Of a DNA stretch of 64,000 bases, positions 301-31,773 are shown piece after piece. The stretch covers positions 64,001 to 128,000 of IMG/VR virus record IMGVR_UViG_3300050821_010764; one strand, written 5' to 3'. The notes beneath the pieces are model-generated. The model had not been told where the DNA came from and searched no databases. It saw nothing but the letters and a program-made list of their open reading frames with translations. Source of the DNA: a virus. The stretch's first letter is position 1. Each line of letters starts with the position of its first letter. Position numbers and translations under genes: made by a program.

Positions 301-476
301 GCGAACTACAGCAGACCATGCACAAGCTAATTGATACTATGGAAAAGAGAATAGAAGAAATATTGTCTTGTGTAGATAATGAGACTGCTGAAGAGTTTCT
401 CAGAATATTTAATGAGAAAATGAAGGAACTTAATGAACAAACCAACCTACAAAAAAATCCTGGAGCATCCGGATAA
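297..476 (+). CDS. Small hypothetical protein (59 aa, MSELQQTMHKL...)
   Basis: ATGA overlap with the previous stop; translated by hand; below the ORF-track cutoff. Confidence 0.5.
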   Translation: MSELQQTMHKLIDTMEKRIEEILSCVDNETAEEFLRIFNEKMKELNEQTNLQKNPGASG

Positions 477-1191
477 AGACGAAATCATTAATAAATTAGT
501 GATTGGACAGCCGTTAAATGATATTCATGATTGGCTAAAGGGTAAATATACCAACGTCAGTGAGGCTAAATTTGTTCTTTCTGAAAAAATTCTTAAGTCT
601 TTTCAACATACTTATTTAGATTTTTATAATGATGTTTTAACCGATCTTTCTAAAACAAAAACAGCTTTAGCTACTGGCACAGTTGATCAATTAGAATTAG
701 CTGTTAAAAAGAGTCCAGCCTATAAAGATGCCATGATTAGAACGGCAGGAACTGAATTAGATATTAGACAGATGGTACATAATTTATGTGTCAATGTGGA
801 ATCTCGTTTATCACAAGTCTTCGATGAAATTCAAGAAGACCCCAGAAATATCAACACCAAGGTAGATCGTTTATTGATTGATTATGCTGAAGTACTTGGT
901 AATATTCTTGAAAAATACTATAAGTTTACTGAAGCTCCTGCCGACCAAATTATTCAGCATAACGTGACTTTACAAGTGGTAGATCAGCATATTTCGGTAT
1001 TTCATGATGTAATTAAAGAAGTTTTGTCTCAGATGGATTTGGAGACCTCTTTGTATTTTATGGAGGTATTCAACACCAAGATGGCGGCGCTCAAGGTACC
1101 CGTACCAGATGCTCAGCCAACCCAGGAAATGAAGCTGGCTGAAGCAAGATTGCTTAATGAAACCATTAACCAAAAAATAAATCAACCATGA
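433..1191 (+). CDS. Hypothetical alpha-helical phage protein (a small terminase role is possible but unsupported)
   Basis: 252-aa ORF translationally coupled to its neighbours. Confidence 0.7.
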   Translation: MNKPTYKKILEHPDKDEIINKLVIGQPLNDIHDWLKGKYTNVSEAKFVLSEKILKSFQHTYLDFYNDVLTDLSKTKTALATGTVDQLELAVKKSPAYKDAMIRTAGTELDIRQMVHNLCVNVESRLSQVFDEIQEDPRNINTKVDRLLIDYAEVLGNILEKYYKFTEAPADQIIQHNVTLQVVDQHISVFHDVIKEVLSQMDLETSLYFMEVFNTKMAALKVPVPDAQPTQEMKLAEARLLNETINQKINQP

Positions 1192-3029
1192 CCAAACCTC
1201 GTTCAGCAATTATCGACATGCCATCCAAGAAACAATTGGAAATGGCTACCCGTCCATATTCTAATGAAGAGCTACAAGTGGAGCCTGAGGTTCAAGAAAG
1301 ACTTGACAAGTTGATGAAATTTTTCGACGAAGCTGGGATCGATTATAGTAAATTTGATCCAGAGTCTATTCCTAAATTAGACTTCAGCAAAAGACAAGCT
1401 TATCCAAACAATGACCAGTATATGTATATCCCGGGTCAACATAATACGCATAAATGGATGCAAGCAGTTAGAGAAATTTTTGCCAAGGAGAAATCCGGCG
1501 ACAACCGAGTTAATGCCATTCGTCGGGTTACTTCTGGTTGGAATATTATGGAGACGTTTGACTTTCTAAACTGGCTTAAATTTCATGAAGCAGGAGATCA
1601 TATGAAGTACAAGTTCGCACAACTATGGTATGAAAATGGTGAGCCCGGCTATTTTCTACATGTTAAGCCAGATCCAGCCAAAGAACCAGAGCCACAGGTT
1701 TCTGGACGTGATATCGATTTTGCTAGAGATCAAAGCAATAACAACGAAGAAAAGAAACAACTAATCGAAAAGCAACGTAATAAGATTATTGGCAGATTAG
1801 ATTCCGCTGAGAAACTTCTACGCTCTCCGGATGGACAAGTGTTCTCTGGTAAAGAATTTGAATCTCTGTTAGAAGCCATCTATCAACTAAAAAAGAAAAT
1901 TCAGATGGTAAACAAAGTAAGCGCTTCGACTAGATTGTATGAAGATATGATTATTCGTGAAGCCAACATTCTTAGCAGAAATGGTTTTACTAAGGCTGCT
2001 AGCGTATTACATTCTGTGGCACAAACTCCGGGCGCCGCCGGCGAACAAGCTAAAGGTACGCCTGGTGGAGAGATGGCTCTAACCCCTCCTGCTCCGCCTG
2101 ATCCATCTGGTGCTGGTAATCCTGGTGCTCCTGGTGGATTGCCATCAGTGGGTCCGGGAATGCCTCAAGGTGCTCCTAACTCTGCGACTCCAGCAGGCGT
2201 ACCTAATGAGACATCTCCTGCTCCAAAGGGGATTAGTGAATTTTTAGAGGGAATGAATACGGGTAAATTTTCTCCTGGCGACAATCTAGAAGTAGAAGAT
2301 ACTTTGTATGTATCTGACAACCAAGACGAGTTATTGGTAACAGAAGCGCAAGTTCCACCAGTAGATGAACCAATGACTGCTACTCCAGCACCTGCACCAC
2401 TAGATCCTGCTCCTGTAGCCACCCCACCAGCTCCTGATGCTCCTGCAACCGAAGAGCCGTTAGAAGTGACCGAGGATGATATTAAACCAAAGGGTGATGC
2501 TCCTGCGCCATCCGCCAGTGATTTTGATAGTAAAATTGATGCGGTCTTTTCCGGCATCACAGTCGCTGATGTGGTAGCCAAGCTAGAAGACATTGCCAAA
2601 GTTTATAAAACCAGAGAAATTCCAAGACAGCTCGGCGTCGTTGATATGATGCTAGATAGTCTGGGACTTGCCTCCTACTTCCCATCTTTATCAGAAGCTA
2701 CTAACAAAGCGCTTGAGTCTAACAACTATATTTCTACCCGTGTGGAAGACATTCTTTCCAAACTACGTGGAGCTATGGCTGGTAAGGATATTGATTTAAA
2801 GGGTGACGATAATGAGAAGCCAGAAGTAGCAGGCATTAAAAACCAGCTACAGTCTGATCAAGATAAAGAAAAGGCTCGTAAGCAGATGAGAAAAGATCAA
2901 GAAACTGCCGAGCTTGCCGGTAAGGGCAAAGAAACACCTGAAGTGGAAATTGAAGAAGATTTAGGTGCACCACCGACTCCGGCAGCACCTCCCGCCGCTC
3001 CTCCAAGAGCCCCTAGACCTCCAGCATAA
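1188..3029 (+). CDS. Pro/Ala-rich putative head-associated protein
   Basis: 613 aa with low-complexity Pro-rich linkers and several K-x-A / x-A-Q motifs. Confidence 0.7.
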   Translation: MTKPRSAIIDMPSKKQLEMATRPYSNEELQVEPEVQERLDKLMKFFDEAGIDYSKFDPESIPKLDFSKRQAYPNNDQYMYIPGQHNTHKWMQAVREIFAKEKSGDNRVNAIRRVTSGWNIMETFDFLNWLKFHEAGDHMKYKFAQLWYENGEPGYFLHVKPDPAKEPEPQVSGRDIDFARDQSNNNEEKKQLIEKQRNKIIGRLDSAEKLLRSPDGQVFSGKEFESLLEAIYQLKKKIQMVNKVSASTRLYEDMIIREANILSRNGFTKAASVLHSVAQTPGAAGEQAKGTPGGEMALTPPAPPDPSGAGNPGAPGGLPSVGPGMPQGAPNSATPAGVPNETSPAPKGISEFLEGMNTGKFSPGDNLEVEDTLYVSDNQDELLVTEAQVPPVDEPMTATPAPAPLDPAPVATPPAPDAPATEEPLEVTEDDIKPKGDAPAPSASDFDSKIDAVFSGITVADVVAKLEDIAKVYKTREIPRQLGVVDMMLDSLGLASYFPSLSEATNKALESNNYISTRVEDILSKLRGAMAGKDIDLKGDDNEKPEVAGIKNQLQSDQDKEKARKQMRKDQETAELAGKGKETPEVEIEEDLGAPPTPAAPPAAPPRAPRPPA

Positions 3030-3037
3030 GCAGATGA

Positions 3038-3802
3038 ATGAAACTACGAGAATTGCTTCAACAAATGAAGGAAGTGCAAGAGACTATAGGGACTTCTGAG
3101 CCCTATATCTGTGGAGGCACGCCTAGAGATAGATACTTGAAGCACTTAGAAAATATCTCGGATTTAGATATTACTACCGGTGACAAAACAGTAGATTATC
3201 TATCACAAGAATTTGCAGAGGCTCTTAAAAAACAATACAACATTACTAGAAGAACAATGGATGATGGTCACAGCACCATCTACATTGGTTCCTTTAAAAT
3301 GGATTTCTCTTCTAATTTTAATGTTCCTGGCATTGATGCTATCCTCGCCAAAACGGGGATTGCCAAGCCCACGGAAATACAAAAAGAAATGTTCAGCAGG
3401 GATTTTACCTGTAATGCTCTTCTTCTATCTTTGGACCTAAAAGAGTTAATTGATCCAACTCATAAAGGATTTAAAGATATGAATGAGAGAATGATTCGCA
3501 CCTGCTTGGCTCCTGAGATTACTTTGACTACCAACAGGAATAGAGTGATTAGAGCTATTTATTTGGCGTCTAAACTAGATTTTGATGTTGATCCTCGCCT
3601 CATTGAGTATGTTAGAAAAAATCCTCAGACTGTCAGAATCTCTACCGAAAAAGCCATGTCTGAGAAATTGAATGAAGCTTTCAATCGAGATGCTGATAAG
3701 GCTAGTAGTCTTATTACTAAAATGGGATTATGGAACTACATCCCAATTACTGAAGTAGTTTATCCATATTATATGAAACATAAGGGTTCCAATGGGAAAT
3801 AA
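3038..3802 (+). CDS. Class II (CCA/poly(A) polymerase-type) nucleotidyltransferase, divergent and short
   Basis: GGTPRD...DLDIT (motif A) and SRDFTCNAL (motif B); motif D reads TNRNRVIR instead of EDxxRxxR. Confidence 0.85.
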   Translation: MKLRELLQQMKEVQETIGTSEPYICGGTPRDRYLKHLENISDLDITTGDKTVDYLSQEFAEALKKQYNITRRTMDDGHSTIYIGSFKMDFSSNFNVPGIDAILAKTGIAKPTEIQKEMFSRDFTCNALLLSLDLKELIDPTHKGFKDMNERMIRTCLAPEITLTTNRNRVIRAIYLASKLDFDVDPRLIEYVRKNPQTVRISTEKAMSEKLNEAFNRDADKASSLITKMGLWNYIPITEVVYPYYMKHKGSNGK

Positions 3803-4886
3803 ACGAGCTTATTTTCAAGGAGGTGGTGGTGTCAATGAACCAACTCCGGGCGAAAAGAAATACAAATCAGACCCAGCCATTGTGGTACAGCCTCGTTTTG
3901 AAGAGGTGTTCTATCGCAATTATGACCTCTACGAAGTGCCTGGTTTCGAGCACATTGGTCCAGGGGCTGGTTGGCACGCCCTACAAAATTATAACTCGGT
4001 TGGGGAATTTCTAGAAGCCCGCAGGAAGAGACTCGCCCCTCGCTACGTGGCTGATGACTCTTGGCAGTTGGATAGTGGGAAGCGCACCAAAGAAAATCCC
4101 GGAATTAAAGCTAGAGCAGCCTTGCTAAACAGAATAATCAAAACGGCATCAAACTGTGGATTCTGTGGAAAATCTAAAATCGATGTAACTTTTCCTTGTG
4201 AACATTGTGGCAAAGGTGGAGCTGTTGTTGCGGGTGACGAGAATAATGGACCCAATTTTGATTATGGTAAAGGCTTGTACTCCAATATGAATAAGTATAA
4301 AAGTGTCCAAGATTTTGAAGAACATGCTGATAAAGGTCCTGGAGCTTTTTTTGCTGATGACAACGAAGACCATATGATGCCGCCTAAAGAGCATGGCACT
4401 AAAATCTACGATTGGAAAAACAGTATTTATCAAGGAACGCCTAAAGCTACTAAACGACACGACTCTAATAATATAGATTTCCTAGCTGATCAATATATTG
4501 ATCCAAATATTGTAACACCAGAACCTGGTGACGTAGATGGTGGCAATCCAGTAGGAGAGGCTAATCAAATGGGAGGATATTTAGATGAATATCTTCCAGA
4601 AAAAGATTTTGAGGGCAAAGATCCGGATACTCTGGATTTTGGTAGGGATTACTCTGGCAGTGACCAGTTTCCTAGCAAAAAAGACTTTGCTCCGGCGACC
4701 ATTGACCAAGAGTCTGTCAAAAAACTAATAGACAAATACTCTCCTGCACCTACTTCTGGGCTGTACGGTTTGCCTGATGGTGTGGATTTGCCGGAGGAAG
4801 ACCTTGGGAATCCAACGGATATTAATCCAGATTATGGCTCAGTGGGTCCAGAAAGTAAGATGTACGAAGATAAATGGAACATTTAA
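3792..4886 (+). CDS. Acidic hypothetical head-associated protein with a CxxC-x11-CxxC zinc site
   Basis: 364 aa; the N-terminal YFQGGGGVNEPTPG motif is shared with the protease-scaffold protein. Confidence 0.7.
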   Translation: MGNKRAYFQGGGGVNEPTPGEKKYKSDPAIVVQPRFEEVFYRNYDLYEVPGFEHIGPGAGWHALQNYNSVGEFLEARRKRLAPRYVADDSWQLDSGKRTKENPGIKARAALLNRIIKTASNCGFCGKSKIDVTFPCEHCGKGGAVVAGDENNGPNFDYGKGLYSNMNKYKSVQDFEEHADKGPGAFFADDNEDHMMPPKEHGTKIYDWKNSIYQGTPKATKRHDSNNIDFLADQYIDPNIVTPEPGDVDGGNPVGEANQMGGYLDEYLPEKDFEGKDPDTLDFGRDYSGSDQFPSKKDFAPATIDQESVKKLIDKYSPAPTSGLYGLPDGVDLPEEDLGNPTDINPDYGSVGPESKMYEDKWNI

Positions 4887-4936: not shown

Positions 4937-5887
4937 ATGTCATTACAGTCAACAGCACAAGAATTAATCGTTGTCGACCCAGCTTCTATGGGTCACCAAA
5001 TGGGTGGTGGCACACCTATGCAACTAGTTCCTTTGGAAGTGCACGATGGACCATCAGAGCATGACCATTCTGAACCTTTAGAAGTCAGCGACCAACCCGT
5101 TGAAATTGAAATCGAACTTACTCCTGAGCATTTAGGTATTGCTGGACCTGATCCACAACAACCTTCCGAACTTGAAGTGTCAGAACATGACCACAAAGAC
5201 GAAGCCAAAGTAGATGAAGATCCCGCCCAAACAGCTAAGAATGAAAAATGGGACTGGGGTAAACGTGGACCAACTGGTTTTATTGCCTGGGTTAAAGAGC
5301 GCTGTGACGATGTTCCTAAACACTCCGGTTATGATACCGCAGGTCTTGAGCGTGCTGTAGCTTATCTTGAGAGACTAGATAACGAAGTTTCCAAAGCTAT
5401 GAGAATGGATTTGGATGGTGAGCTAGATGCTAACCAAATTGAGAAGGTTCGTTCTATCATCGATAATGGTATTGAACGTTTGCATGATCGTTTAGATAAG
5501 GTTAAGAGCAGCAAAAAGAAGACTCGCAAGAAGAAGTCCGATTACGAATCAGATGGTCTTGTTAAAGAGGCTCAGAAGATTACTGGAGTATCTGGGGTGT
5601 ACGTTATGGTACCTCTATTGATTTCTAGAATTGCCAGAGTTTGTATTAATGGCATGGTGTCTGCTGGTCATGACATCGAAGATTTGTTTGAGAGACAAGT
5701 AAAATTCTACAAGCTTGATGTGCAACAACAAGCCGAGGTAATGCAATTGTTGGCTGATATGGGCTATAATGTTCGTCAGGACAGAGGCTTCATGCCAGAT
5801 CAGGATATTGACGTTGCAGACAGCGGCAATATGGACTGGGCAGCAAACTACAATCCTTCGGCTAATGTGTGGGGCAAGGATAGATAA
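4937..5887 (+). CDS. Hypothetical head-associated protein
   Basis: 316 aa, GAGG RBS, LVKEAQ motif. Confidence 0.7.
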   Translation: MSLQSTAQELIVVDPASMGHQMGGGTPMQLVPLEVHDGPSEHDHSEPLEVSDQPVEIEIELTPEHLGIAGPDPQQPSELEVSEHDHKDEAKVDEDPAQTAKNEKWDWGKRGPTGFIAWVKERCDDVPKHSGYDTAGLERAVAYLERLDNEVSKAMRMDLDGELDANQIEKVRSIIDNGIERLHDRLDKVKSSKKKTRKKKSDYESDGLVKEAQKITGVSGVYVMVPLLISRIARVCINGMVSAGHDIEDLFERQVKFYKLDVQQQAEVMQLLADMGYNVRQDRGFMPDQDIDVADSGNMDWAANYNPSANVWGKDR

Positions 5888-6057
5888 TGAGCAGACCAAT
5901 TATTCAAAAGGTTAGCTTATTAATGTCTGCCATGATGAGAGCTTGTCTAACCAAGCAATCTACTTATAGGCAGCAAGTGCAGAAGTATGATTTGAATAGT
6001 ATCGAACAAAAATGTCTCTTAGAATTATTGTACGACATGGAGAGCAAACATGTCTAA
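5887..6057 (+). CDS. Small hypothetical protein (56 aa, MSRPIIQKV...)
   Basis: TAATG coupling to the upstream stop; fills the gap; translated by hand. Confidence 0.5.
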   Translation: MSRPIIQKVSLLMSAMMRACLTKQSTYRQQVQKYDLNSIEQKCLLELLYDMESKHV

Positions 6058-6718
6058 ATATTCTCGTCATCAATCAGTGGTTTCCAGACAATCCGATGAA
6101 AACATCAGTGAAGACCACTGGTTAAAAAACTTTCAAAAGAGTTTACAAAAGGGCGCGGTTCAACCACGTTCCACCGATAACTCTTTGTTTGACCAAATTA
6201 ATTCCATCATGAATGGAAAATCCAAATACACGTCAGTTGATCACGCTGTAAAGGATATGCAAGAAAGAAGCGGTCTTACCGCTTACTTAGATAAGATCAG
6301 CAAAACGTCGGGAGAAGAGCGCGCTACTAGTAGCAAAGCTAAAACCGCTTCCGACATCCACCATGTAATCGAGAAGAGAGTCGATAGCGAAAAGGGACTT
6401 CCCGTTGTATTCAAGAAGTGCCCACAAGCCAAGACGACCTTAGAGAATTACATTAGGGATACAAAGGGCAACTTGCCAGTTCCGGCAATTATTGAAAAAC
6501 TAAGGTCTATCCATCAGTCTGACGTCTCTGACGCCAAAGATTGGGATGATGACAATCTTATCAGAGAAGTAAGTAAGCAGAACCTGATCGCTAAGAGAGA
6601 TAATCCAGCTAGCTATGAAAATTATGCTAACTTGGGCTCTAGAGATCATGACGCTGATTCCGAAATAGATCCATCTAACACCGACGCATTTCACGCCCTT
6701 ACTCCCGTAAAACAGTAA
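6050..6718 (+). CDS. Hypothetical protein immediately upstream of the large terminase
   Basis: 222 aa, GGAG RBS. Confidence 0.7.
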   Translation: MSKYSRHQSVVSRQSDENISEDHWLKNFQKSLQKGAVQPRSTDNSLFDQINSIMNGKSKYTSVDHAVKDMQERSGLTAYLDKISKTSGEERATSSKAKTASDIHHVIEKRVDSEKGLPVVFKKCPQAKTTLENYIRDTKGNLPVPAIIEKLRSIHQSDVSDAKDWDDDNLIREVSKQNLIAKRDNPASYENYANLGSRDHDADSEIDPSNTDAFHALTPVKQ

Positions 6719-6731
6719 CTGGGAGGGCTAT

Positions 6732-8639
6732 ATGCCCGCTGCGTCAAATACGTTAACGATCTCTGATAAAGATATTTTCAACAAACTTAAGAACCAACTG
6801 CTCATGATTGATCCGGTTGCGTTCTGTGAAACCTATCTCACACTAGATGGCAAGCCATTTAGACTGCATGGTAATGGCTATAAACCCTTTGCCGATATTT
6901 ACCGCTACATCGGTATCAAAGCTTTAGAACCTAACGCTAAACCAGTTATCATGGTTAAAGGTCGTCAGGTCGGTGCCACTACCATGGCTAGTGCATTAGA
7001 AATGTACTTCATGGGATCCGGTTTATTTGGGAGTGGTATCAAACCAGCTATCAGAGTCATTCACGCTTTCCCTCAGTTGGAATTGGCGGCAGCTTACTCT
7101 AAGACTAAGCTAAATCAAATGATTGTCTCCGCTGTTCCAGCGGCAGGGCAAGAAGAAAAATCCAGGGCTGCTAAACCAAAATCTCATATGCAGGTTCTAT
7201 TAGATCAGTCTACTCCTACCAATGACTCCATGCATTTCAAGCAGTTCATTGGTGGAAACCATTTATGGATTGAGTCGGTCGGACTTGACGGAGACCGTAT
7301 CATGGGTCGTACTGCCGATGTTTTGTTTTTTGACGAAGTTCAGAAAACGACCGGCATGGCAATTGGTAACTCTCTAAAAGTTTTGACCACTGCCAAGTAT
7401 GGAGAACCAACCAAGGGTGTGCAGATTTATTTCGGAACTCCAAGGCGTAAAGGTTCTGATTTCCATAAGATGTGGCAGACCTCTTCTCAACAGTATTATT
7501 ACTTAGGTTGTGAAGACTGTAAAGAATATTTTCCATTGTATACTCCTGGTTCGGATGACTGGAAAGATATTTGGTTGCACGGCTACATTGTCAAATGTAC
7601 TAAGTGTGGTCATGAGCAGGATAAGCGCGAGGCAGCAGAACGTGGTAAATGGATTGCCCTCAAGAATCCAGATGATCCAGATTGTAAAATGATTGGATTC
7701 CATATTAATCAGCTTTACATGCCTATGTTTACTCGTGAGCAAATCGAGAGCGAATTACCTGGTAAGCATCCAATTAACACCGAACGTGTTTTCATGAATG
7801 AAGTATTGGGAGAGTTTTTCCAAGGTGATGCTAGCCCAATTACTCCAGAAGAAATTAAAGACCTCTGTGCTGACATTGGTAGAAAATTTAGCGCTCGTAT
7901 CATTCCGCAAAAGAATACTATTAACCAACAGATTGTAGTATTGGGAATAGACTATGGCGCCCGCGCAGACTTAGAGCAACTAGCTAATCCTGATAAAGTA
8001 AAAGCCACGGGTCAATCTTATAGCACTGCCGTAGTGTTAATGTCTAAAGGTCCTGGGTTATTATCTATTGAGTTTTGTACTAAATTCAAACGTAATGACA
8101 TTGAAAGTAAAAAGGGAATCATTGATCAGATTATGAGACAGTATAGTATCCAATTGGCAGTGGGAGATATTGGTTACTCCAATGACTTTTCTGCTTTATT
8201 GCATCAGTCTTATGGAGATCGTTATTTAGTTTCCCGCGCTCATAATAGAATAAATGGTCACGTTAAGTTTAGTGCCGACGCTTTTCCAAAAGAAATTATC
8301 TTTGAAAGAGATTTCTATATTGGAGAGTTGTATGAACAAATGAAGAAAGGTATGATTAAGTTTCCATTTGGAGATTATGAGAAGGTGGCTTGGTTAATTG
8401 AGCATTGTGCTAGTATGGAAATCAAACCATCCATTTCCAGAGGTGGAGATCCAAGCGTCCATTATGTAAAAGGTAGTACTCCAAACGACGGTTTTATGGC
8501 GCTATTGAACGCTTACATAGCTTATAAGTTCATTATCAGCCGAGGATTTACCAATAATAATCCACTACTTCAGCATCAAAACTTCAAACAACGCAATAAA
8601 CCACTGATTGTAACGGGCTATGTTCCTCGTAAATTCTGA
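6732..8639 (+). CDS. terL: Terminase large subunit, lambda gpA-like
   Basis: KGRQVGATT Walker A-like, FFDE Walker B, FGTP, CEDC/CTKC zinc pair, GKW, GFHINQLY, NEVLGE and the GIDYG nuclease motif. Confidence 0.9.
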   Translation: MPAASNTLTISDKDIFNKLKNQLLMIDPVAFCETYLTLDGKPFRLHGNGYKPFADIYRYIGIKALEPNAKPVIMVKGRQVGATTMASALEMYFMGSGLFGSGIKPAIRVIHAFPQLELAAAYSKTKLNQMIVSAVPAAGQEEKSRAAKPKSHMQVLLDQSTPTNDSMHFKQFIGGNHLWIESVGLDGDRIMGRTADVLFFDEVQKTTGMAIGNSLKVLTTAKYGEPTKGVQIYFGTPRRKGSDFHKMWQTSSQQYYYLGCEDCKEYFPLYTPGSDDWKDIWLHGYIVKCTKCGHEQDKREAAERGKWIALKNPDDPDCKMIGFHINQLYMPMFTREQIESELPGKHPINTERVFMNEVLGEFFQGDASPITPEEIKDLCADIGRKFSARIIPQKNTINQQIVVLGIDYGARADLEQLANPDKVKATGQSYSTAVVLMSKGPGLLSIEFCTKFKRNDIESKKGIIDQIMRQYSIQLAVGDIGYSNDFSALLHQSYGDRYLVSRAHNRINGHVKFSADAFPKEIIFERDFYIGELYEQMKKGMIKFPFGDYEKVAWLIEHCASMEIKPSISRGGDPSVHYVKGSTPNDGFMALLNAYIAYKFIISRGFTNNNPLLQHQNFKQRNKPLIVTGYVPRKF

Positions 8640-8715
8640 TAATCTCCTAAATACTTGTTTTACTGATATATTATTAGTTGAGTATAGTAGAGGATAGTGG
8701 AAACAATGAGGCTTC

Positions 8716-10599
8716 ATGGCTTTTAATAAAACCGCAAAAAAAATATGGACAGGACCATCTAACTCTGATCAATACTTTGAAAATAGGTCTACTTTACCTC
8801 AGGTTAGTGCTCTTATGGCTCAAAGCGTCTCTCCTTCAAGAAGGGAAGCCTTGGCTTCAGAGGTAGAGCAAGGTCTCTTTAGGGACGGCTCTGGTCCATC
8901 TTACAAAGAAGATGGGGCTACCTATAATTCTCGTGTAGTGGCTTCTGTTGGCATGAATAAATCTGCGCAGGTTGTCAGCAGTTCGGGAGGTAGTTTCCGT
9001 GGAGGAACCGGCGATACCGTCAAACAAACTCCTGAAGTTTATTCTCCCCTTTGGTTAAACTCCAATCTTAATTTACCACGAGATAGAGCTACTATCAATG
9101 CTTGGTGCCGAAGCTTTTATGCTTTGAATCCTTTCGTGCATAATGCTATCAATCTTCATAGCACCTATCCAATTAGTAAGCTTAACATCAAGTGTCCTAA
9201 CAAGGACATCGAAAAGTTTTTCAATGATATGATTGAAGAAATTGATTTGATGAACATCTGCGTGCAAATCGCCCAGGAATATTGGCTACTTGGAGAATCT
9301 TTCGTTTATGCTGAGCTTGATGAAAGCCGTGGTAAATGGAGCCGTCTGTTGATTCAGAATCCAGACTACATGATTGTCAAGCGTACAGTAGTTGCCAATG
9401 AGCCTATCATTATGTTACGCCCCGACGAAAACCTTAAGAAAATCATTTTCTCTAATCGTCCAACTGATATTGAACAGCGCAAGCAGTTAAATAATCATAT
9501 CATTGACTCTGTCAAGCGTGGCGAGAATATTCCATTAGATAACTTCCATGTGTCTCATTTAGCTCGTAGAATCAGCCCTTACGAAATCCGTGGCACTGGT
9601 CTTCCAGTCTGTATCTTCCGTCAGTTGATGTTATTCGACAAGCTAAGAGAATCTAAGTATGCTCAGGCTGATGGTATGATCAATCCACTTACTTTAGTGA
9701 AGATTGGAACCGATGGCGCCGATGGTTTGCATCCAACCTTTGCCGACCTGGAATCTTGGAGGAATGTATTTGAAGAAGCACAATATGATAAGGACTTCAA
9801 GATCTTTACGCATGCCGGTATTGCTGTTGAGCGAGTCGGTTATGGTCAAGGTATTTATGACATTTCGGGTGATATCACTCAGATTATCAAGGAAATCTAT
9901 GTCGGTTTGCAAGTTCCACCGGTTCTAATGGATGGCGGCGCCGACACTACCTATGCCAACGGTGGTGTGGCTCTTGACGTTCTTCGTCAGCGTTACATGC
10001 AATTCCGTAATATGATGTCTACTTGGTTGAAGCGAAAGATTTTTGCTCCAATCTCTAAGATTCAGGGCTTCTACGATTACTCAGGCGGTGAGAAACAACT
10101 TATCGTTCCAGAAATCGATTGGAACCATATGTCTTTGTTTGATGCAGGCGACTACATCAATAGCTTGGTAACTCTTACTCAGGGCGATGGTCCTGCTAAG
10201 AGAGCTTCTATTCATACTTTGTATCGTTCTTTGGGTCTAGAATTCGAAGACGAAGTTAGAAAGATGCGTAAAGAAGCTATCCAAAATGCTATTAACAAAA
10301 AAGAAGCGGTAGCACTAGATGCCATGGATTTGAACTCTCTTCGTGCATTGGATGAAGAGGATGAAATTCCAGAACCAGAATTGGCACCAGGTCAAGCTCC
10401 ACCAGGATCCGCGCCACCACTACCAGGTGAGTCTCCAGGCGGCGGACCTCCACCTCCGGGAGCAATGCCAGGATTAGATATGGGAATGCCACCAGGCGGA
10501 GCACCTCCTCCACCTCCACCACCAGGTGGAGCCCCTCCAGGAGGCGGAGAAGCACCTCCAGCAGCGCCTCCACCAGCAGGCGGAGCACCTCCAGCTTAA
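8716..10599 (+). CDS. Portal protein with a Pro/Gly-rich C-terminal tail
   Basis: Follows terL; NPFVHNAI, YWLLGESF and SPYEIRGTG are portal-like segments; size fits. Confidence 0.8.
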   Translation: MAFNKTAKKIWTGPSNSDQYFENRSTLPQVSALMAQSVSPSRREALASEVEQGLFRDGSGPSYKEDGATYNSRVVASVGMNKSAQVVSSSGGSFRGGTGDTVKQTPEVYSPLWLNSNLNLPRDRATINAWCRSFYALNPFVHNAINLHSTYPISKLNIKCPNKDIEKFFNDMIEEIDLMNICVQIAQEYWLLGESFVYAELDESRGKWSRLLIQNPDYMIVKRTVVANEPIIMLRPDENLKKIIFSNRPTDIEQRKQLNNHIIDSVKRGENIPLDNFHVSHLARRISPYEIRGTGLPVCIFRQLMLFDKLRESKYAQADGMINPLTLVKIGTDGADGLHPTFADLESWRNVFEEAQYDKDFKIFTHAGIAVERVGYGQGIYDISGDITQIIKEIYVGLQVPPVLMDGGADTTYANGGVALDVLRQRYMQFRNMMSTWLKRKIFAPISKIQGFYDYSGGEKQLIVPEIDWNHMSLFDAGDYINSLVTLTQGDGPAKRASIHTLYRSLGLEFEDEVRKMRKEAIQNAINKKEAVALDAMDLNSLRALDEEDEIPEPELAPGQAPPGSAPPLPGESPGGGPPPPGAMPGLDMGMPPGGAPPPPPPPGGAPPGGGEAPPAAPPPAGGAPPA

Positions 10600-16095: not shown

Positions 16096-19000
16096 ATGAC
16101 ATTTATTAAACTAGGCGAAGCACAGGAGATTAAGTTAGAGAGCATGGATTCGTGCCTCCCTGCTGTGAGTCCTGAAATTCTAGAGAACTTTAGGAAGTTT
16201 GCAATCAATCTTAAGAAGGTTGCCCCTAAAGCAGAAGACTTTTTATATTTCTCTGCTGTTATGATGCATGCTGCTGAAGCAGCCGCCCTCAATGACGACG
16301 GGACTCCTAAGCTAACGGCTAGAGGAGAGACGGTAGAAGTAGGTTGGGATAAATCTGGTGGTACTTATCGCTGGATGAGCAACGACTCTAGTGTTAAACC
16401 CTATAAGAATTCTAATGGAGATATATTTCCAGAGGAAGAACTGGTAAAAGCATATAAGAAGTGGGTGGGTAAGCCTCTTTGCGTGGATCATAAATCGAGT
16501 TCGGTTGACCATGTAAGAGGCTTTATTGTTGATACCTACTATGATCGTAATCTTAAGAGAGTTATAGCTTTATGTGCTTTAGATAAGGCTGGATATCCTC
16601 AATTAGCAAGACAAATCTCCACTGGAGTTTCTAGCTGCGTGTCCATGGGTACCGCTGTTGGAAGAGCAATTTGCACCGATTGTGCCCGAGTCGCCCGCAC
16701 GGAACAAGACTTCTGTGACCATATGCGCCGCAAGAGCTGCTATGGTGAAATTAACGTAGATTTAAATCCACTTGAATTATCCATTGTTGTTAACGGAGCC
16801 GATCCAAAGGCTAATATCAAGCATATTATTGCTGCCGCTAACACCCTTAATACTTATGTCGAGAACAAACAAAAGGAACTCGACAAGCTAGCAGACTTGA
16901 CTTACTCAGCTACTTTGACTGTAAATGACCCTCAAGGACATGAAGGTGGAAATAGCACACAAGTTACAGTCAATGCGACGGACCTTGCTAAATTCAAAGA
17001 AGACGTCGAGGCAGCTTTTCAGAAATTGAGTGAAATTAAAAATTCTGGAAAAGATACTACTAATGATACGGCATCTAATCAAGAGCTAGGTACTGTGATA
17101 CCAGCCGCTGATTCTGGATTGGCTCCCCCACACGCAAGATATGCATCCGCTGAAGTAGGGGTGGATCCTATTGCTGAACTTCATGAGGTTACTAGAACCA
17201 TTGAAGCCAAGCTGAGCCAAATGAAACAAAGCTTGGACAAGTTAGCAAACACTTCTACTACAAACAAACAAGAGGAAAATATGTCTGGATCAAATGAAAC
17301 TGTAAAAAAGGGTTATTACCAAGGCGCCGGTGGCGTTAATGAGCCTACCCCTGGTCAGGCAAAATATCCAAAGGATCCTCTTCAAGAGCATCTCCGTGAA
17401 AAAGAGGATAAACAAATGGTGGGTCAACCTCCATTTCCAGATGTAGGACCAGTCGATGGTATGCATCCATCCCCAGAATCTGCTGACCAGTCTAATGAGT
17501 TAGAGCGTAAAAAGATGCTTGCTCGTGCTGAGTCTGAAGAGAGAGCCCAACGTCGTCAAGCGATTGTTGATTTAGCTAAGAGAACTATTGAAAACAAAAA
17601 AACCGCTTGGTTTCAAAATGGTGATGGCAACAACCCAGGAACCCCAACTCCAGGTAAACCAAAATACCCAGTTGATAAACTAGAGTATGTACTTCGTGAA
17701 CACGAAGATAAGCAGATGGTTGGACAGAAGCCTTTCCCAGGTGTTGGTCCAGTTGATGGTCTTCATCCATCTCCACAATCCGCTGACACCTCTGATGAGT
17801 TAAAGCGTAAGGAAATGCTACGTAGAGCTGGTTTAATAGCCAGATTCGTTCGTGCTTCCAATAATGATGGTACTGCCAATCTAGGTAATAGTGCTTGGGA
17901 AGTTTATCTTGGTGACAAGCTACTTCTTACTGCCTCTGTCAATGAACTATCTGGTGGACGTGCTGAAGTATTACATGACAGCATTGCAACCCGTGAATTC
18001 GGTGGCAAACTAATTGAGAAGATTAAGACTCATGGTGCAGACAAGATTCGCTCCTTAGTAAAGAGTGGACAACCAGCTCCAGGCGGTGCTCCTCCAGCTC
18101 CAGGCGGTGACGCAGGCGCTCCACCAGCAGGTGGCGATGCCGGTCCTCCAGCCGAAGATACTGGTAAATCCGGTGATCCAAAAGATCAAGCTCTTGCATT
18201 AGCAGAGAAGGGTGTCGAGCTTAGCTCCGACCTTAACGAAGCAGTCAAGGCTATGGTCGGTGAGAAATCCGAAATGGGCGATATGGAAGGCGGACCAGCA
18301 GCAGCTCCAGAAATGGGTGCTTCAGCCTCCTTTAGTACACAAACACTCAACAATTTGAGGAAGGAACTTAATGGCGCGCTAACTCACGCTATGCAAGAAT
18401 CCATTGCTTCCATTAACGATCATGTTGAAGAACTTAATATGATTTCTGGATTATATGATAAGGGCGCAGTAACTGACTCTAACCAAGAGTTCGTTGGCTC
18501 TATCGTTGAAGATGCACTAAGCGAAGCCAAGACTGCAATTGCAGATGGTTTCAAATTGATGAGCGCATTTGTGAAGTACGCCCGTGGTACTACTGCCATC
18601 GTCAAGCGTGCAGAAATCGAGGCAGAACTAGAGGCATTAGCTGAGGGAGAGACTATGACAGGCGAACAAGACGCCAACAATGGCGATGATTTAATGGCTA
18701 TGATCAGCGATACCAATTCAGATTTGGATGCTATCCATGGTCTTATGGCAGATGACAACGCTCATGCCGGCGAAGAGCCACATGACGAGGCACTAGAGGG
18801 CTTACTAGACATGCCAGCAGATGATGCAAATGATCTTAAAGCCGGTGATTTGAAGCCAGAAACTATGCTAGACCCAGCAATGATGTCTCATGCATCTTTT
18901 GATACCAAAGAAGGTCGTCAAGCAATGAGAGCCAAGCTAGCCGCTGACGCTCTTGGCAAGCAAGACGACGGAGAAATCTCCGATATGTCTAAGCAAAAGT

Positions 19001-19662
19001 TTAGCGACATGCTAGACCAAGCTGACAAGCTTACTGATGGTCAAACTGACTTGGATACCAAGCCATCTGACAATCTAGGATATGTTGAAACTCTTCCAGA
19101 AGTTAACAAGGCTATGATGGATCTTGCAAAAGCTCCACCAAAGGTCCGTAAGGAAGCAGAAGCTATCCATAACCTAATCTCTGAAGGCAAGCTTCACCCA
19201 TCCGACCTAGACGCTCTAGTAGCAGAAGGTTTGGATAAGGATGCAGTAGCTTACTACAAGAAGTACTGGGCTCAGACTGAAGGTGGCGGAGAATTCGCCA
19301 GTGAATTGGTCAAGGAGCACGTCAAGGCAGACCTTGAGGCAGAACTTAACAAGTACAGAGTAAAGCTAGGACGTTCTTACGAACTAGCATATGACATGGT
19401 TGACCGTGGTTTGTGTCACCACGACAGAAACGCAGTTTCTGCCCAGGTAGATGAAATCATGAAGTTCAATGACGAGTCTTTCGATTCTCTAAAGAGAGTT
19501 GTTGCAAGACACCCAGTAACCAACCTTCGTAAGGAAGGTGGAAGAATGCCACAAGTTGGTATGATCGGTTCTGGTGACCTAAGCACCACACCACAGTCTG
19601 ATGGTGATATGTTTGCACAATTGTCGGCAGCATTTTCTAAGACTTCCAAGAGAAGTTTCTAA
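16096..19662 (+). CDS. Prohead maturation protease fused to a long scaffold-like region
   Basis: NSNGDIF, GKPLCVDH, RGFIVD, VSMG, CTDC..FCDH and ELSIVVNGADPKA match the HK97/assemblin-like protease pattern; coiled-coil C-terminal part. Confidence 0.8.
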   Translation: MTFIKLGEAQEIKLESMDSCLPAVSPEILENFRKFAINLKKVAPKAEDFLYFSAVMMHAAEAAALNDDGTPKLTARGETVEVGWDKSGGTYRWMSNDSSVKPYKNSNGDIFPEEELVKAYKKWVGKPLCVDHKSSSVDHVRGFIVDTYYDRNLKRVIALCALDKAGYPQLARQISTGVSSCVSMGTAVGRAICTDCARVARTEQDFCDHMRRKSCYGEINVDLNPLELSIVVNGADPKANIKHIIAAANTLNTYVENKQKELDKLADLTYSATLTVNDPQGHEGGNSTQVTVNATDLAKFKEDVEAAFQKLSEIKNSGKDTTNDTASNQELGTVIPAADSGLAPPHARYASAEVGVDPIAELHEVTRTIEAKLSQMKQSLDKLANTSTTNKQEENMSGSNETVKKGYYQGAGGVNEPTPGQAKYPKDPLQEHLREKEDKQMVGQPPFPDVGPVDGMHPSPESADQSNELERKKMLARAESEERAQRRQAIVDLAKRTIENKKTAWFQNGDGNNPGTPTPGKPKYPVDKLEYVLREHEDKQMVGQKPFPGVGPVDGLHPSPQSADTSDELKRKEMLRRAGLIARFVRASNNDGTANLGNSAWEVYLGDKLLLTASVNELSGGRAEVLHDSIATREFGGKLIEKIKTHGADKIRSLVKSGQPAPGGAPPAPGGDAGAPPAGGDAGPPAEDTGKSGDPKDQALALAEKGVELSSDLNEAVKAMVGEKSEMGDMEGGPAAAPEMGASASFSTQTLNNLRKELNGALTHAMQESIASINDHVEELNMISGLYDKGAVTDSNQEFVGSIVEDALSEAKTAIADGFKLMSAFVKYARGTTAIVKRAEIEAELEALAEGETMTGEQDANNGDDLMAMISDTNSDLDAIHGLMADDNAHAGEEPHDEALEGLLDMPADDANDLKAGDLKPETMLDPAMMSHASFDTKEGRQAMRAKLAADALGKQDDGEISDMSKQKFSDMLDQADKLTDGQTDLDTKPSDNLGYVETLPEVNKAMMDLAKAPPKVRKEAEAIHNLISEGKLHPSDLDALVAEGLDKDAVAYYKKYWAQTEGGGEFASELVKEHVKADLEAELNKYRVKLGRSYELAYDMVDRGLCHHDRNAVSAQVDEIMKFNDESFDSLKRVVARHPVTNLRKEGGRMPQVGMIGSGDLSTTPQSDGDMFAQLSAAFSKTSKRSF
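17302..17830 (+). repeat. Two copies of a ~75-aa module inside the protease-scaffold protein
   Basis: ...KYPKDPLQEHLREKEDKQMVGQPPFPDVGPVDGMHPSPESAD vs ...KYPVDKLEYVLREHEDKQMVGQKPFPGVGPVDGLHPSPQSAD. Confidence 0.9.
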
Positions 19663-30531: not shown

Positions 30532-31773
30532 CTACTGTCCTGCCGCGAAGTCCAGCAAGAAGCTCTTGTTATTGTTGTCCGGATTTCTCAGAATTTCCAA
30601 ATAACAAGCTTCCAAAATGGATTTAATTTGCGGTCCCGGCTTGATGCCGATAACCAGCAAATCGTCTCCATTTAATTGCATTTCGCGCTTGGCGAAGACA
30701 GTTTCGCTAACGTATTTGCCGAACTGCACCCTAGAGTTGATTTCCATAGCCTCAGTCAATCGTATAAATTGGTCAAAGGTATAGTCCCAGGGGTCAGGGG
30801 CATGGTTCTTAATGACCGCCATAAAGCTCTTATAAGCCAAAGGCGTGTCCTTCTTAAGGAATTCATTATACCTGTCCAAAAGGCTCAGTAAGAAAGTGAC
30901 TCTTTTGATTTCTTTATTAGGAAACTTTAAGAATAACAGTTCTGCCTGTACCTGTTCGACTGGGCACATGCCATACATAAATGCCAAGCGAGTTTCTAGT
31001 TCCTCTTGACATTTATCTAAGAAGGGCAAGAAGTGCATATAGACATCTCGGCTACAGAGGAATGGACAAGCCACTGCCAATGCACCCGATTGTTGAAGCA
31101 GTTGAATCCCATACGAAGGATCCTTCGTCATCAAGGTTTTGCACAACTCATCTTGAATACGTTCCTTGGAAACCTTCTTCAAGGTTTCAAGGCTGCTTTT
31201 CATTCCAGTAAAAGTAGGAGATTCCACCGCATAACCAAAACGAGCGGCGAATCGTGCAACTCGCATGATTCGGAGTCCGTCTTCTTGGAATCTAGTTTCT
31301 GGATTTCCAACTGCTCGAATAATTCCTTTGTGTAGGTCTTCTAATCCACCATAAGGATCGACTAAACGATCTGCAATAGGGTCGTAGGCGATAGCGTTGA
31401 TGGTCAAGTCTCGTCTTGCCAAGTCTTGTTCCACATTGAGCACAAAGAAGACTTCTTCTGGACGTCGTCCGTCCTTGTATTCTCCTTCGATGCGAAAGGT
31501 GGTAACTTCGAAATGATTTTCGACACCTGGACCCATCACTACCGTGACAGTTCCGTGCTGCAAACCCGTGGGAATGGTCTTAGGAAATAATCCAATGACT
31601 TCTTGCGGGCTAGCATCCGTGGTAATATCCCAATCCTTGGGGGTTTGACCAAGCAGTAAGTCGCGCACACACCCACCTACGATGAAGGCTTGGTAACCTT
31701 CCGCGCTCAGGACGCGGCACACCTCGAAAGCTTGAGGATTGACGTGTTGTTGCGAAATTTGTACGTTTAGCAT
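30532..31773 (-). CDS. cca: CCA-adding tRNA nucleotidyltransferase (class II)
   Basis: GGCVRD, DWDI, EVTTFR-EGEYKDGRRP flexible loop, RRDLTINA, EDGLRIMR, SKERI, and C-terminal NGDDLL..G..PGPQI. Confidence 0.9.
   Translation of the reverse strand: MLNVQISQQHVNPQAFEVCRVLSAEGYQAFIVGGCVRDLLLGQTPKDWDITTDASPQEVIGLFPKTIPTGLQHGTVTVVMGPGVENHFEVTTFRIEGEYKDGRRPEEVFFVLNVEQDLARRDLTINAIAYDPIADRLVDPYGGLEDLHKGIIRAVGNPETRFQEDGLRIMRVARFAARFGYAVESPTFTGMKSSLETLKKVSKERIQDELCKTLMTKDPSYGIQLLQQSGALAVACPFLCSRDVYMHFLPFLDKCQEELETRLAFMYGMCPVEQVQAELLFLKFPNKEIKRVTFLLSLLDRYNEFLKKDTPLAYKSFMAVIKNHAPDPWDYTFDQFIRLTEAMEINSRVQFGKYVSETVFAKREMQLNGDDLLVIGIKPGPQIKSILEACYLEILRNPDNNNKSFLLDFAAGQ

What the first reader, a model, noticed from the sequence alone, without database searches (positions are those of the whole stretch)
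3038..3802. Divergent CCA/poly(A)-polymerase-like enzyme embedded in the head-gene operon
Seen: the catalytic DLD and RDFTxNA motifs are intact, but the templating motif EDxxR reads TNRNR, the flexible-loop region is not recognisable, and the protein is 254 aa with no tail domain. It is coupled to putative head-protein genes. Known: EDxxR selects CTP/ATP in class II enzymes. Inference: altered nucleotide or substrate specificity (RNA tailing, protein nucleotidylation or signal-nucleotide synthesis), possibly packaged in the virion. It is unlikely to be a redundant CCA enzyme because a canonical one lies at 30532-31773.
Basis: partly seen in the sequence, partly recalled or inferred. Interest (0 to 1): 0.7.

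Follow-up and report, generated by a model that had tools for sequence, protein, structure and literature searches.

The report
Mini CCA-type nucleotidyltransferase in phage head module
A giant uncultured phage and hundreds of its relatives keep, just before their DNA-packaging genes, a stripped-down and probably active cousin of the enzyme that adds CCA to tRNAs; it is joined or fused to capsid-assembly-type and cell-wall-cutting partners, so it may be cargo shot into the host with the DNA, which has not been shown.

Summary
ORF 3038-3802 (+) encodes a 254-aa class II (CCA/poly(A)-polymerase type) nucleotidyltransferase with head and neck domains only. GGTPRD, DLD, the third carboxylate D89 and RDFTCNA are intact. 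Motif D reads TNRNR, RRD reads SRD, and the BxA motif, flexible loop, body and tail are absent.

It is not a decaying gene. It belongs to an almost phage-only family of about 250 aa, under purifying selection (omega about 0.18). In every testable locus of 160 IMG/VR loci it sits 3-5 kb upstream of terL, even where TerL is only about 40% identical. All five near-complete 430-480 kb relatives carry it; only two carry a canonical CCA enzyme.

Here it overlaps the next gene, a disordered protein, by 11 nt. In 23 of 79 relatives the two are fused in frame, through at least 5 fusion or fission events. That partner starts with a peptide module copied from the prohead protease-scaffold protein. In a deep branch the partner is an M15-like cell-wall peptidase, in some members with a tail lysozyme.

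Best reading (about 0.4): a capsid-loaded, injected RNA 3'-end nucleotidyltransferase with a single nucleotide specificity. Packaging, cleavage and substrate are inferred. The scan reached much the same reading before on another genome (e1-5347637).

The parts
3038..3802 (+). Minimal class II nucleotidyltransferase (P0001, 254 aa), head and neck only. GGTPRD at nt 3113-3130, DLD at 3161-3169, D89 at 3302-3304, SRD at 3395-3403, TNRNR (in place of EDxxR) at 3530-3544.
3782..3794 (+). Shine-Dalgarno-like AAGGG (3782-3786) and the ATG of the next gene (3792-3794), both inside the end of the nucleotidyltransferase gene (stop codon 3800-3802). The next gene is in the +1 frame. This is translational coupling.
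   Evidence: Overlaps of 4-32 nt (mostly 14) occur in the split relatives.
3792..4886 (+). Partner protein g3792 (P0123, 364 aa). It is intrinsically disordered and built of short conserved motifs: K-R-A|YFQGGGGVNEPTPG at the N-terminus, a CxxC..CxxC zinc ribbon, NFDYGKGLYSNMNKYKSV, and the C-terminal GLYGLPDG...YEDKWNI. It is fused in frame to the nucleotidyltransferase in 23 of 79 relatives.
17305..17850 (+). Tandem segment (residues 404-500 and 502-585) of the prohead protease-scaffold polyprotein (ORF 16096-19662, P0278). It is homologous to the N-terminal 100 residues of g3792. Each copy follows a K-x-G or K-x-A tripeptide.
   Evidence: BLASTP E 2e-11; the motif occurs only in these two proteins of the 144.8-kb record.
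433..3029 (+). Two conserved upstream genes of the module: g433 (252 aa) and g1188 (613 aa, Pro-rich and disordered). They are syntenic in all testable relatives.
4937..6718 (+). Two conserved downstream genes of the module: g4937 (316 aa) and g6050 (222 aa), lying between the partner and terL.
6732..10599 (+). Large terminase (6732-8639) and portal (8716-10599). These anchor the module as a head and packaging block.
30532..31773 (-). Canonical full-length CCA-adding enzyme (P0002, 413 aa; EDGLR, RRD and RIE motifs). It is an accessory gene in the clade.

Best explanation
The ORF encodes a genuine and probably active minimal class II nucleotidyltransferase, consisting of the catalytic head plus the neck. 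It belongs to an almost phage-only family that is a core gene of a broad lineage of jumbo and mega-phages, and it always sits in the same slot of the terL-proximal head module.

The family has lost what makes a class II enzyme a tRNA CCA-adding enzyme: the body and tail tRNA-binding domains, the BxA motif, the flexible loop that switches C to A, and the first Arg of RRD. This subclade has also lost the templating Asp.

The enzyme is tied to a partner encoded immediately downstream, either by translational coupling or by in-frame fusion. Here the partner is a disordered protein whose N-terminus copies a peptide module of the prohead protease-scaffold polyprotein, directly after a K-x-[AGS] tripeptide. 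In a deep branch the partner is a LAS/M15-type cell-wall peptidase, in some members with a tail lysozyme.

Most likely mechanism: the enzyme enters the prohead with or through its partner. Where the two are fused, the prohead protease cuts it free at K-x-A. It is delivered into the cell with the DNA and there adds one kind of nucleotide (probably C or A, since Arg169 is kept) to RNA 3' ends, either tRNA acceptor ends or other RNAs, at the very start of infection.

Shown: fold, motifs, conservation, selection, synteny, fusions and the shared peptide. Inferred: catalytic activity, packaging, cleavage, substrate and nucleotide.
For: - Fold and motifs.
- Invariant across 56 diverse family members at 24-48% identity: G26, G27, R30, D42, D44, D89, F90, R121, D122, R172. 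R169 is kept in at least 90%.
- Purifying selection: NG86 omega 0.18, against 0.12 for TerL and 0.16-0.27 for the neighbouring genes. This is rough, because dS is near saturation.
- Family size: 708 relatives in the first protein search; 114 50%-identity clusters at E<1e-30; 322 plus 137 IMG/VR loci.
- Almost phage-only: only 3 hits in 185,579 species genomes, all in MAGs, one of them a 383-kb contig carrying the same module.
- Synteny: g1188 upstream in 70/70 and terL downstream in 59/59 close loci. terL is downstream in 43/43 deep-branch loci where TerL is only 40-45% identical. The same order is seen on a 96-kb contig.
- Core gene: 5 of 5 near-complete relatives of 433-481 kb carry it.
- Fusion to g3792 in 23 of 79 loci, with 6 changes on the tree and at least 5 forced by well-supported branches. 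12 of the 14 rows in the window's nearest clade are fused.
- The g3792 N-terminus is homologous to a tandem module of the protease-scaffold protein (E 2e-11).
- K-x-[AGS] occurs at 54 of 62 distinct junctions, against a background of 27%.
- Deep-branch fusions: PolyA_pol + Peptidase_M15_3 (P0234, 27.1 bits against 23.2) and PolyA_pol + M15 + Phage_lysozyme2 (P0203 and L111, 38-39 bits against 28.2).
- The separate downstream gene in unfused deep-branch loci is homologous to that extension (E 3e-31 and 6e-17) and ends in the H..D / HxH metallopeptidase signature.
- RNA link: one member is fused to the HAD domain of 'Swiss Army Knife' RNA-repair proteins and one to a canonical CCA-type domain.
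Against: - There is no direct evidence of packaging. No cultured phage in INPHARED carries the family, so no virion proteome exists.
- The protease site K-x-A is inferred only from sequence recurrence. In the deep branch it is found at only 21 of 36 junctions.
- In the split form, as in this window, nothing shows how the enzyme itself would be recruited.
- AlphaFold on a natural fusion shows no docking of partner motifs onto the enzyme. Residues 253-569 are mostly below pLDDT 50.
- A head-and-neck-only enzyme may bind RNA poorly by itself.
- In many deep-branch loci the downstream gene is a different small Cys-rich protein, so the partner is not uniform.
Confidence: 0.4

Rival explanations
1. 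A cytoplasmic, late-expressed RNA or tRNA 3'-end repair enzyme, a CC-adding-like or A-adding-like partial activity, that is not packaged. The disordered partner, with its zinc ribbon and basic stretches, supplies RNA binding in place of the lost body and tail. The position in the head operon reflects only timing of expression.
For: - Deep-branch members keep a DDPxR template, which the literature allows for A-adding and CCA-adding enzymes (PMC11784652).
- CC-adding enzymes also lack the flexible loop and vary at the first template position (PMC11784652, PMC2910056).
- One member is fused to the HAD domain of RNA-repair proteins and one to a canonical CCA-type domain.
- Partner extensions in several clusters carry poly-Lys/Arg tails.
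Against: - There are no body or tail domains.
- The BxA motif, thought to position the tRNA 3' end, is absent.
- When the template of the human enzyme was randomised, no replacement of Asp or Arg (Asn was available) survived selection for A-addition or CCA repair (PMC11784652).
- 3 of 5 near-complete relatives have no second class II enzyme to complete a CC/A pair.
- The slot next to terL is fixed over very deep divergence, and the fusions to cell-wall hydrolases are hard to explain for a cytoplasmic repair enzyme.
Confidence: 0.25
2. A protein nucleotidyltransferase. The enzyme transfers NMP to Tyr, Ser or Thr of its own partner or of other head proteins during assembly, as the minimal nucleotidyltransferase MNT oligo-AMPylates its HEPN partner. 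The fusions would then be enzyme-substrate fusions.
For: - Enzyme and partner are repeatedly fused or coupled.
- The partner is a disordered chain of conserved Tyr-containing motifs (YFQGGGG, NFDYGKGLY, GLYGLPDG, NPDYG, MYEDKWNI).
- The loss of the RNA-binding body and tail fits a non-RNA acceptor.
- The MNT precedent comes from my own knowledge and was not checked here.
Against: - As far as I know, no class II (PolyA_pol-type) enzyme is known to modify proteins.
- AlphaFold gives no sign that any partner motif docks on the enzyme.
- In the deep branch the partner is a folded M15-like peptidase or a small Cys-rich protein without these Tyr motifs.
Confidence: 0.13
3. A packaging-linked DNA-end enzyme. 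It adds one or a few nucleotides to the 3' ends of the genome made by terminase, to protect or mark the termini.
For: The gene holds a fixed position just upstream of terL in all testable loci. One relative has direct terminal repeats and hence defined ends.
Against: The R121-D122 pair, aligned to the RD of motif B, is kept. From my own knowledge, motif B is read as the ribose 2'-OH sensor. No class II enzyme is known to prefer DNA primers. The fusions to an RNA-repair HAD domain and to lysins do not fit this reading.
Confidence: 0.07
4. A catalytically dead domain kept as a structural or adaptor module of the head.
For: Several substrate-reading residues are changed (SRD, TNRNR, no BxA), and position 166 varies in relatives at 40-50% identity.
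Against: All three metal-binding carboxylates, the GG and R30-D31 of motif A, R121-D122 and R169/R172 are invariant or nearly so across members down to 24% identity. Dead enzymes normally lose these first.
Confidence: 0.04

Closest known systems
Class II CCA-adding enzymes (e.g. PDB 6qxn/6ibp Planococcus halocryophilus, 1miv Geobacillus stearothermophilus, 3h37 Thermotoga maritima, 9ns4 cca2)
   Same: Same head and neck fold (Foldseek E 7e-10, TM 0.66-0.69 over about 240 residues). Same GGxxRD, DxD, third carboxylate, RDFTxN, DP..G..D, and the Arg of motif D followed by R..R.
   Different: No body or tail. RRD reads SRD. EDxxR reads TNRNR. BxA is absent, and the flexible loop is replaced by an ordered helix. 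It scores far below the NCBIfam equivalog cut-off (62 against 290 bits). The family is almost phage-only and lies in the head module.
CC-adding enzymes of split CC/A systems (Aquifex aeolicus, Bacillus halodurans; PDB 3wfo-3wfs)
   Same: No functional flexible loop, and a free choice of residue at the first template position (PMC11784652, PMC2910056).
   Different: CC-adding enzymes keep the templating Asp, RRD and the tRNA-binding body and tail, and they co-occur with an A-adding enzyme. Here 3 of 5 near-complete genomes have no second class II enzyme.
Bacterial poly(A) polymerase I (PcnB; PDB 3aqk-3aqn)
   Same: Same superfamily and head fold.
   Different: The PAP signature [LIV][LIV]G[RK][RK]Fx[LIV]h[HQL][LIV] (PMC2910056) is absent; the corresponding stretch reads YIGSFKMDF. 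EDxxR is not kept. There is no C-terminal RNA-binding region. 38 bits against a cut-off of 306.
Capsid-packaged, injected phage enzymes (T4 Alt and internal proteins with a cleaved capsid-targeting sequence; N4 virion RNA polymerase; T7 gp16 with a lytic transglycosylase domain). From my own knowledge, not tested here.
   Same: An enzyme encoded in the head module, joined to a peptide shared with the scaffold or protease next to a putative protease site, and in some lineages fused to a cell-wall hydrolase.
   Different: I found no class II nucleotidyltransferase reported as phage cargo. Packaging here is inferred, not shown.
HEPN-MNT minimal nucleotidyltransferases (protein oligo-AMPylation). 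From my own knowledge.
   Same: A small Pol-beta-type nucleotidyltransferase genetically coupled to a partner protein.
   Different: A different family (NTP_transf_2, not PolyA_pol). It belongs to a toxin-antitoxin context, not a head module.

Membership tests
Class II nucleotidyltransferase superfamily (Pfam PolyA_pol head, PF01743) | Profile match above the gathering score | tested here: met
   48.4 bits against a cut-off of 23, covering residues 23-154.
Class II nucleotidyltransferase superfamily (Pfam PolyA_pol head, PF01743) | Motif A GGxxRD and DxD plus a third carboxylate | tested here: met
   GGTPRD 26-31, D42, D44 and D89. All are invariant in 56 diverse members.
Class II nucleotidyltransferase superfamily (Pfam PolyA_pol head, PF01743) | Head and neck fold | tested here: met
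   AF2 pLDDT 88.7. All top Foldseek hits are class II enzymes, aligned over 230-260 residues.
CCA-adding enzyme (tRNA nucleotidyltransferase) | Motif D amino-acid template E/D-D-x-x-R | tested here: not met
   It reads T-N-R-N-R; only the Arg is kept. The Asn is kept in 106 of 120 close relatives.
CCA-adding enzyme (tRNA nucleotidyltransferase) | [quoted passage not shown] | tested here: not met
   NFN stands where the canonical copy has RIE. The stretch is modelled as an ordered helix 99-105 with pLDDT 84-93 (PMC2910056).
CCA-adding enzyme (tRNA nucleotidyltransferase) | Motif B RRD | tested here: not met
   It reads SRD, which is nearly invariant in the family.
CCA-adding enzyme (tRNA nucleotidyltransferase) | Body and tail tRNA-binding domains; NCBIfam equivalog score | tested here: not met
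   The protein ends about 40 residues after the start of the neck's ER..E-like helix. 62 bits against 290 (NF009814). The canonical copy P0002 scores 307.
CCA-adding enzyme (tRNA nucleotidyltransferase) | CCA addition on tRNA | not testable with these tools
   This needs an enzyme assay.
CC-adding enzyme | Loss of the flexible loop with a retained x-D-x-x-R template and a full tRNA-binding C-terminus, paired with an A-adding enzyme | tested here: not met
   The loop is absent (met), but the Asp is replaced, there is no body or tail, and 3 of 5 near-complete relatives have no second class II enzyme.
Bacterial poly(A) polymerase I | PAP signature [LIV][LIV]G[RK][RK]Fx[LIV]h[HQL][LIV]; EDxxR; pcnB profile score | tested here: not met
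   The stretch reads YIGSFKMDF. 38 bits against a cut-off of 306 for TIGR01942 (signature from PMC2910056).
Phage capsid cargo / ejection protein (functional class) | Presence in purified virions | not testable with these tools
   No cultured member exists. The INPHARED hits are canonical CCA+HD enzymes.
Phage capsid cargo / ejection protein (functional class) | Head-module position, a link to scaffold or protease elements, and fusion to virion-type lysins | tested here: met

The most novel reading that the evidence does not exclude
This would be the first class II (CCA/PAP-type) nucleotidyltransferase that is phage capsid cargo. It would be loaded through a scaffold-mimicking disordered partner, released by the prohead protease and injected with the genome. 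It would then rewrite host or phage RNA 3' ends (for example tRNA acceptor ends) within seconds of infection, using a natural head-and-neck-only enzyme whose nucleotide choice no longer relies on the canonical Asp/Arg template.
Probability: 0.3. Interest if true: 0.8.

Novelty: new variant of a known kind. Interest (0 to 1): 0.62.

Why it matters
For the CCA-enzyme field, this is a large natural family showing what the class II catalytic core does without the body, tail, flexible loop, BxA and, in this subclade, the templating Asp. Until now this has been explored mainly with engineered truncations and mutants.

For phage biology, it is a core gene of an abundant group of uncultured 130-480 kb phages. 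Its only consistent associations are with capsid assembly and cell-wall breaching. If it is packaged, RNA 3'-end nucleotidyl transfer would join the activities that phages inject ahead of gene expression.

The protein is small and, by its confident model, well folded, and it has clear active-site controls, so the question can be tested directly.

Tried and rejected
- Near-identity DNA search of the first 12 kb against GenBank phages found no match.
- tblastn against the same collection gave 7 weak hits. The two inspected are full-length CCA+HD enzymes, one inside a 1233-aa deaminase fusion, and are not this family.
- BFVD fold search returned only full-size CCA-like viral proteins and nothing of this short type.
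- ESM Atlas on the partner g3792: disordered (pLDDT 0.38), no usable neighbour.
- AlphaFold on a natural fusion (L005, 569 aa): the enzyme domain is confident and the rest is disordered, so there is no evidence that a partner motif docks on the enzyme. This neither supports nor excludes the protein-modification rival.
- Programmed +1 frameshifting at the overlap (GGG AAA TAA A) was considered and set aside. The downstream gene has its own AAGGG-N5-ATG start, and the overlaps differ among relatives.
- An internal K-x-G in the enzyme (L-A-K-T-G, 103-107) was considered as a protease site and rejected, because it is not conserved in the family alignment.
- The first dN/dS script timed out. The rerun used my own NG86 code, and dS is near saturation, so omega is only approximate.
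- Cho et al. 2007 (PMC1765476), on re-engineering the EDxxR template, is not held. I therefore make no claim on what Asn plus Arg would select.
The deep-branch context came from IMG/VR instead.
- No tree against CCA, CC, A-adding and PAP enzymes was built, because no tool-given set of those sequences was at hand.

Full report
**1. What is there.**
The window is bases 64001-128000 of a 144.8-kb IMG/VR virus record that CheckV rates 34% complete. It is therefore a fragment of a very large phage. ORF 3038-3802 (+) gives a 254-aa protein, P0001.

P0001 matches the Pfam PolyA_pol head domain at 48.4 bits against a cut-off of 23. It also matches two PHROG tRNA nucleotidyltransferase families.

HMMER alignments to solved structures and BLASTP to the window's own canonical enzyme P0002 fix the register:
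- Intact: GGTPRD (26-31), DLD (42-44), D89 in DFSSNF (aligned to EVTTFR), and SRDFTCNA (120-127).
- TNRNR (165-169) sits on EDxxR.
- The first Arg of RRD is Ser.
- The basic-x-acidic (BxA) motif that precedes the flexible loop (RIE in P0002) reads NFN.

An AlphaFold model built on 23 relatives has pLDDT 88.7. It shows an ordered helix (99-105) where canonical enzymes have the disordered loop. All top Foldseek hits are class II CCA-, CC- and A-adding enzymes and PAP, aligned only over their first 230-260 residues. The protein is head plus neck, without body or tail.

NCBIfam puts P0001 far below every equivalog cut-off (62 against 290 bits). P0002 passes as a CCA tRNA nucleotidyltransferase at 307 bits and has the RNA-binding and tRNA_NucTran2_2 domains.

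**2. It is a conserved family, not a relic.**
The protein search found 708 relatives. The best 120 are 67-77% identical and about 257 aa long, on contigs of up to 479 kb. In these, [STAN]-N-[RK]-N-R, GGxxRD, DxD and SRDFTCN are kept.

A profile search of 1.84 billion cluster representatives found 114 clusters at E<1e-30. They define a family of about 250 aa with these hallmarks: D[ILV]D[IL]TTGD, DGH, DFSSNF, E..SRDFT[CI]N and R169/R172. Across 56 members at 24-48% identity, the following are invariant: G26, G27, R30, D42, D44, D89, F90, R121, D122, R172.

Motif D is not uniform across the family:
- The most distant members keep DDPxR.
- Relatives at 40-50% identity have K, S, M, Q or D at position 166.
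- Only the window's own clade has a fixed Asn there.
- R169 is kept in 105 of the 109 family rows of that alignment.

The Asp-to-Asn change is therefore a subclade trait laid over an older family-wide remodelling (SRD, no BxA or loop, no body or tail).

Pairwise NG86 omega is 0.18. That compares with 0.12 for TerL, 0.09 for portal and 0.16-0.27 for the neighbouring genes. dS is near saturation, so these values are rough, but relaxed selection is excluded.

The family is essentially viral. A scan of 185,579 species genomes gave three hits, all in MAGs. One is a 383-kb contig with the same module, binned with a Chitinophagales genome. No GenBank phage in INPHARED has it.

**3. Context.**
In 80 close IMG/VR loci the gene order is g433 - g1188 - nucleotidyltransferase - g3792 - g4937 - g6050 - terL - portal. 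It holds wherever the flanks allow a test: 70/70 upstream and 59/59 for terL.

In 80 loci of the deep DDPxR branch, where TerL is only 40-45% identical to the window's, the enzyme still sits between the g1188 and g4937 homologues, 3-6 kb before terL (43/43). A 96-kb contig shows the same order.

All five near-complete relatives of 433-481 kb have the short enzyme, and only two have a canonical CCA enzyme. The short enzyme is the core gene and the canonical one is accessory. The two are not a CC/A pair.

**4. The partner.**
The next gene, g3792 (P0123), starts 11 nt before the enzyme's stop codon, in the +1 frame, behind its own AAGGG. It is predicted to be disordered. It is built of short conserved motifs separated by variable linkers.

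In 23 of 79 close loci the enzyme and this protein form one reading frame of 447-783 aa, most ending in YEDKWNI. On a tree of the enzyme the fused and split states change 6 times, and well-supported branches force at least 5 changes. The window's nearest clade is 12 fused to 2 split.

Residues 4-100 of g3792 are homologous to a tandem segment (404-500 and 502-585) of the protease-scaffold polyprotein at 16096-19662, at E 2e-11. Its N-terminal stretch, [YW][YF]QG.GGVNEPTPG, follows a K-x-[AG] tripeptide in both proteins and occurs nowhere else in the record. K-x-[AGS] occurs at 54 of 62 distinct enzyme/partner junctions, against a background of 27%.

In the deep branch a subgroup has a different partner. 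Several cluster representatives and IMG/VR loci carry the enzyme fused to a conserved middle region plus an M15-type metallopeptidase (P0234, above the Pfam cut-off). In P0203 and L111 a tail lysozyme (above the cut-off) follows as well. Where the two are not fused, the separate downstream gene is homologous to that extension (E 3e-31 and 6e-17) and ends in the H..D / HxH signature.

Other deep-branch loci have a small Cys-rich gene in that slot instead. One member carries the HAD domain of RNA-repair proteins in place of the peptidase. Another is fused to a canonical CCA-type domain.

**5. Reading.**
The invariant catalytic residues, the purifying selection and the confident fold argue for an active nucleotidyltransferase.

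Published work bears on what it cannot be:
- BxA and the flexible loop are needed for A-addition and are missing in CC-adding enzymes (PMC2910056).
- CC-adding enzymes vary at the first template position (PMC11784652).
- When the template of the human enzyme was randomised, with Asn available, no replacement of Asp or Arg survived selection for A-addition or CCA repair (PMC11784652).

The enzyme is thus not a CCA-adding or A-adding enzyme. With no C-to-A switch it most likely has a single nucleotide specificity. Which nucleotide cannot be read from the sequence.

Its only constant associations are with the head module, a scaffold-like peptide next to a recurring K-x-A tripeptide, and cell-wall hydrolases of the kind found in virion ejection proteins. 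The most economical explanation is capsid cargo delivered with the DNA (confidence about 0.4).

The rivals are:
- an unpackaged late RNA or tRNA-end repair enzyme whose partner supplies RNA binding (0.25);
- a protein nucleotidyltransferase acting on the Tyr-rich partner (0.13);
- a DNA-end function in packaging (0.07);
- a dead structural domain (0.04).

**6. Earlier notes of this scan.**
A follow-up on another genome (e1-5347637) reached much the same reading: a mini CCA-like enzyme tied to capsid assembly and fused to a floppy protein sharing a peptide with the protease. I reproduced this independently here.

Notes on this genome pointed to the shared peptide (e1-5786600) and to a K-x-A/G motif across head proteins (e1-5786596). 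I tested the first. I tested the second only at the enzyme/partner junction.

**7. Verdict.**
This is a real, conserved and probably active enzyme. It is a new variant of the class II nucleotidyltransferases, defined by a minimal architecture, a remodelled nucleotide pocket and a fixed place in the capsid module of a large group of uncultured giant phages. Function and packaging remain to be shown.

Noticed in passing
window 3792-4886 and 17305-17850: The first 100 residues of g3792 are a third copy of a module that is tandemly duplicated in the protease-scaffold polyprotein (BLASTP E 2e-11). Each copy directly follows K-x-A or K-x-G. This looks like a shared capsid-targeting or processing module.
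   Followed up: yes
G001-G005 (records of L012, L016, L021, L030, L042): Only 2 of 5 near-complete relatives of 433-481 kb encode a canonical full-length CCA-adding enzyme, while all 5 encode the short one. IMG/VR labels three of these records 'provirus', which seems doubtful for contigs of 430-480 kb rated 97-100% complete.
   Followed up: partly
L088:6676-10377 (LR756501.1, the 735-kb uncultured phage): A 1233-aa ORF combines a cytidine/dCMP deaminase domain (residues 115-227) with a full CCA-type enzyme (PolyA_pol head, RNA-binding region, HD domain, residues 790-1144). This is an unusual deaminase plus tRNA nucleotidyltransferase fusion.
   Followed up: no
L170:8764-11667 and several loci (e.g. 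L029, L065, L073, L095, L099): The terL match is split into two pieces about 1 kb apart, or lies 1.5-2 kb further downstream than in other relatives. This suggests an intein, intron or homing-endonuclease insertion in terL in some members.
   Followed up: no
L105-L161, the gene directly after the nucleotidyltransferase (e.g. L105:10814-11248, L139:10121-10513): Many deep-branch loci have in the partner slot a 130-148-aa protein that starts MIRGKxKxCPFGL...C. It has no Pfam match.
   Followed up: no
window 4149-4220 (g3792 residues about 120-141): The CxxC..CxxC zinc ribbon of g3792 is present here. In the alignment of fused relatives it is absent or lies at other positions (L074, L008, L026), so it behaves as a mobile insert.
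   Followed up: partly
L170 (JAIXLO010000160.1, 383-kb contig in a Chitinophagales MAG): A complete copy of the module (g433 through portal, 38-65% identity) lies on a 383-kb contig binned with a Chitinophagales genome. This is a possible clue to the host, or a binning artefact.
   Followed up: partly
P0001 residues 25, 125, 156: Three cysteines (ICGG, FTCNA, RTCL) are invariant in the close clade. In the deep branch they are replaced together by V, I and P/T, which suggests a co-varying structural cluster.
   Followed up: no
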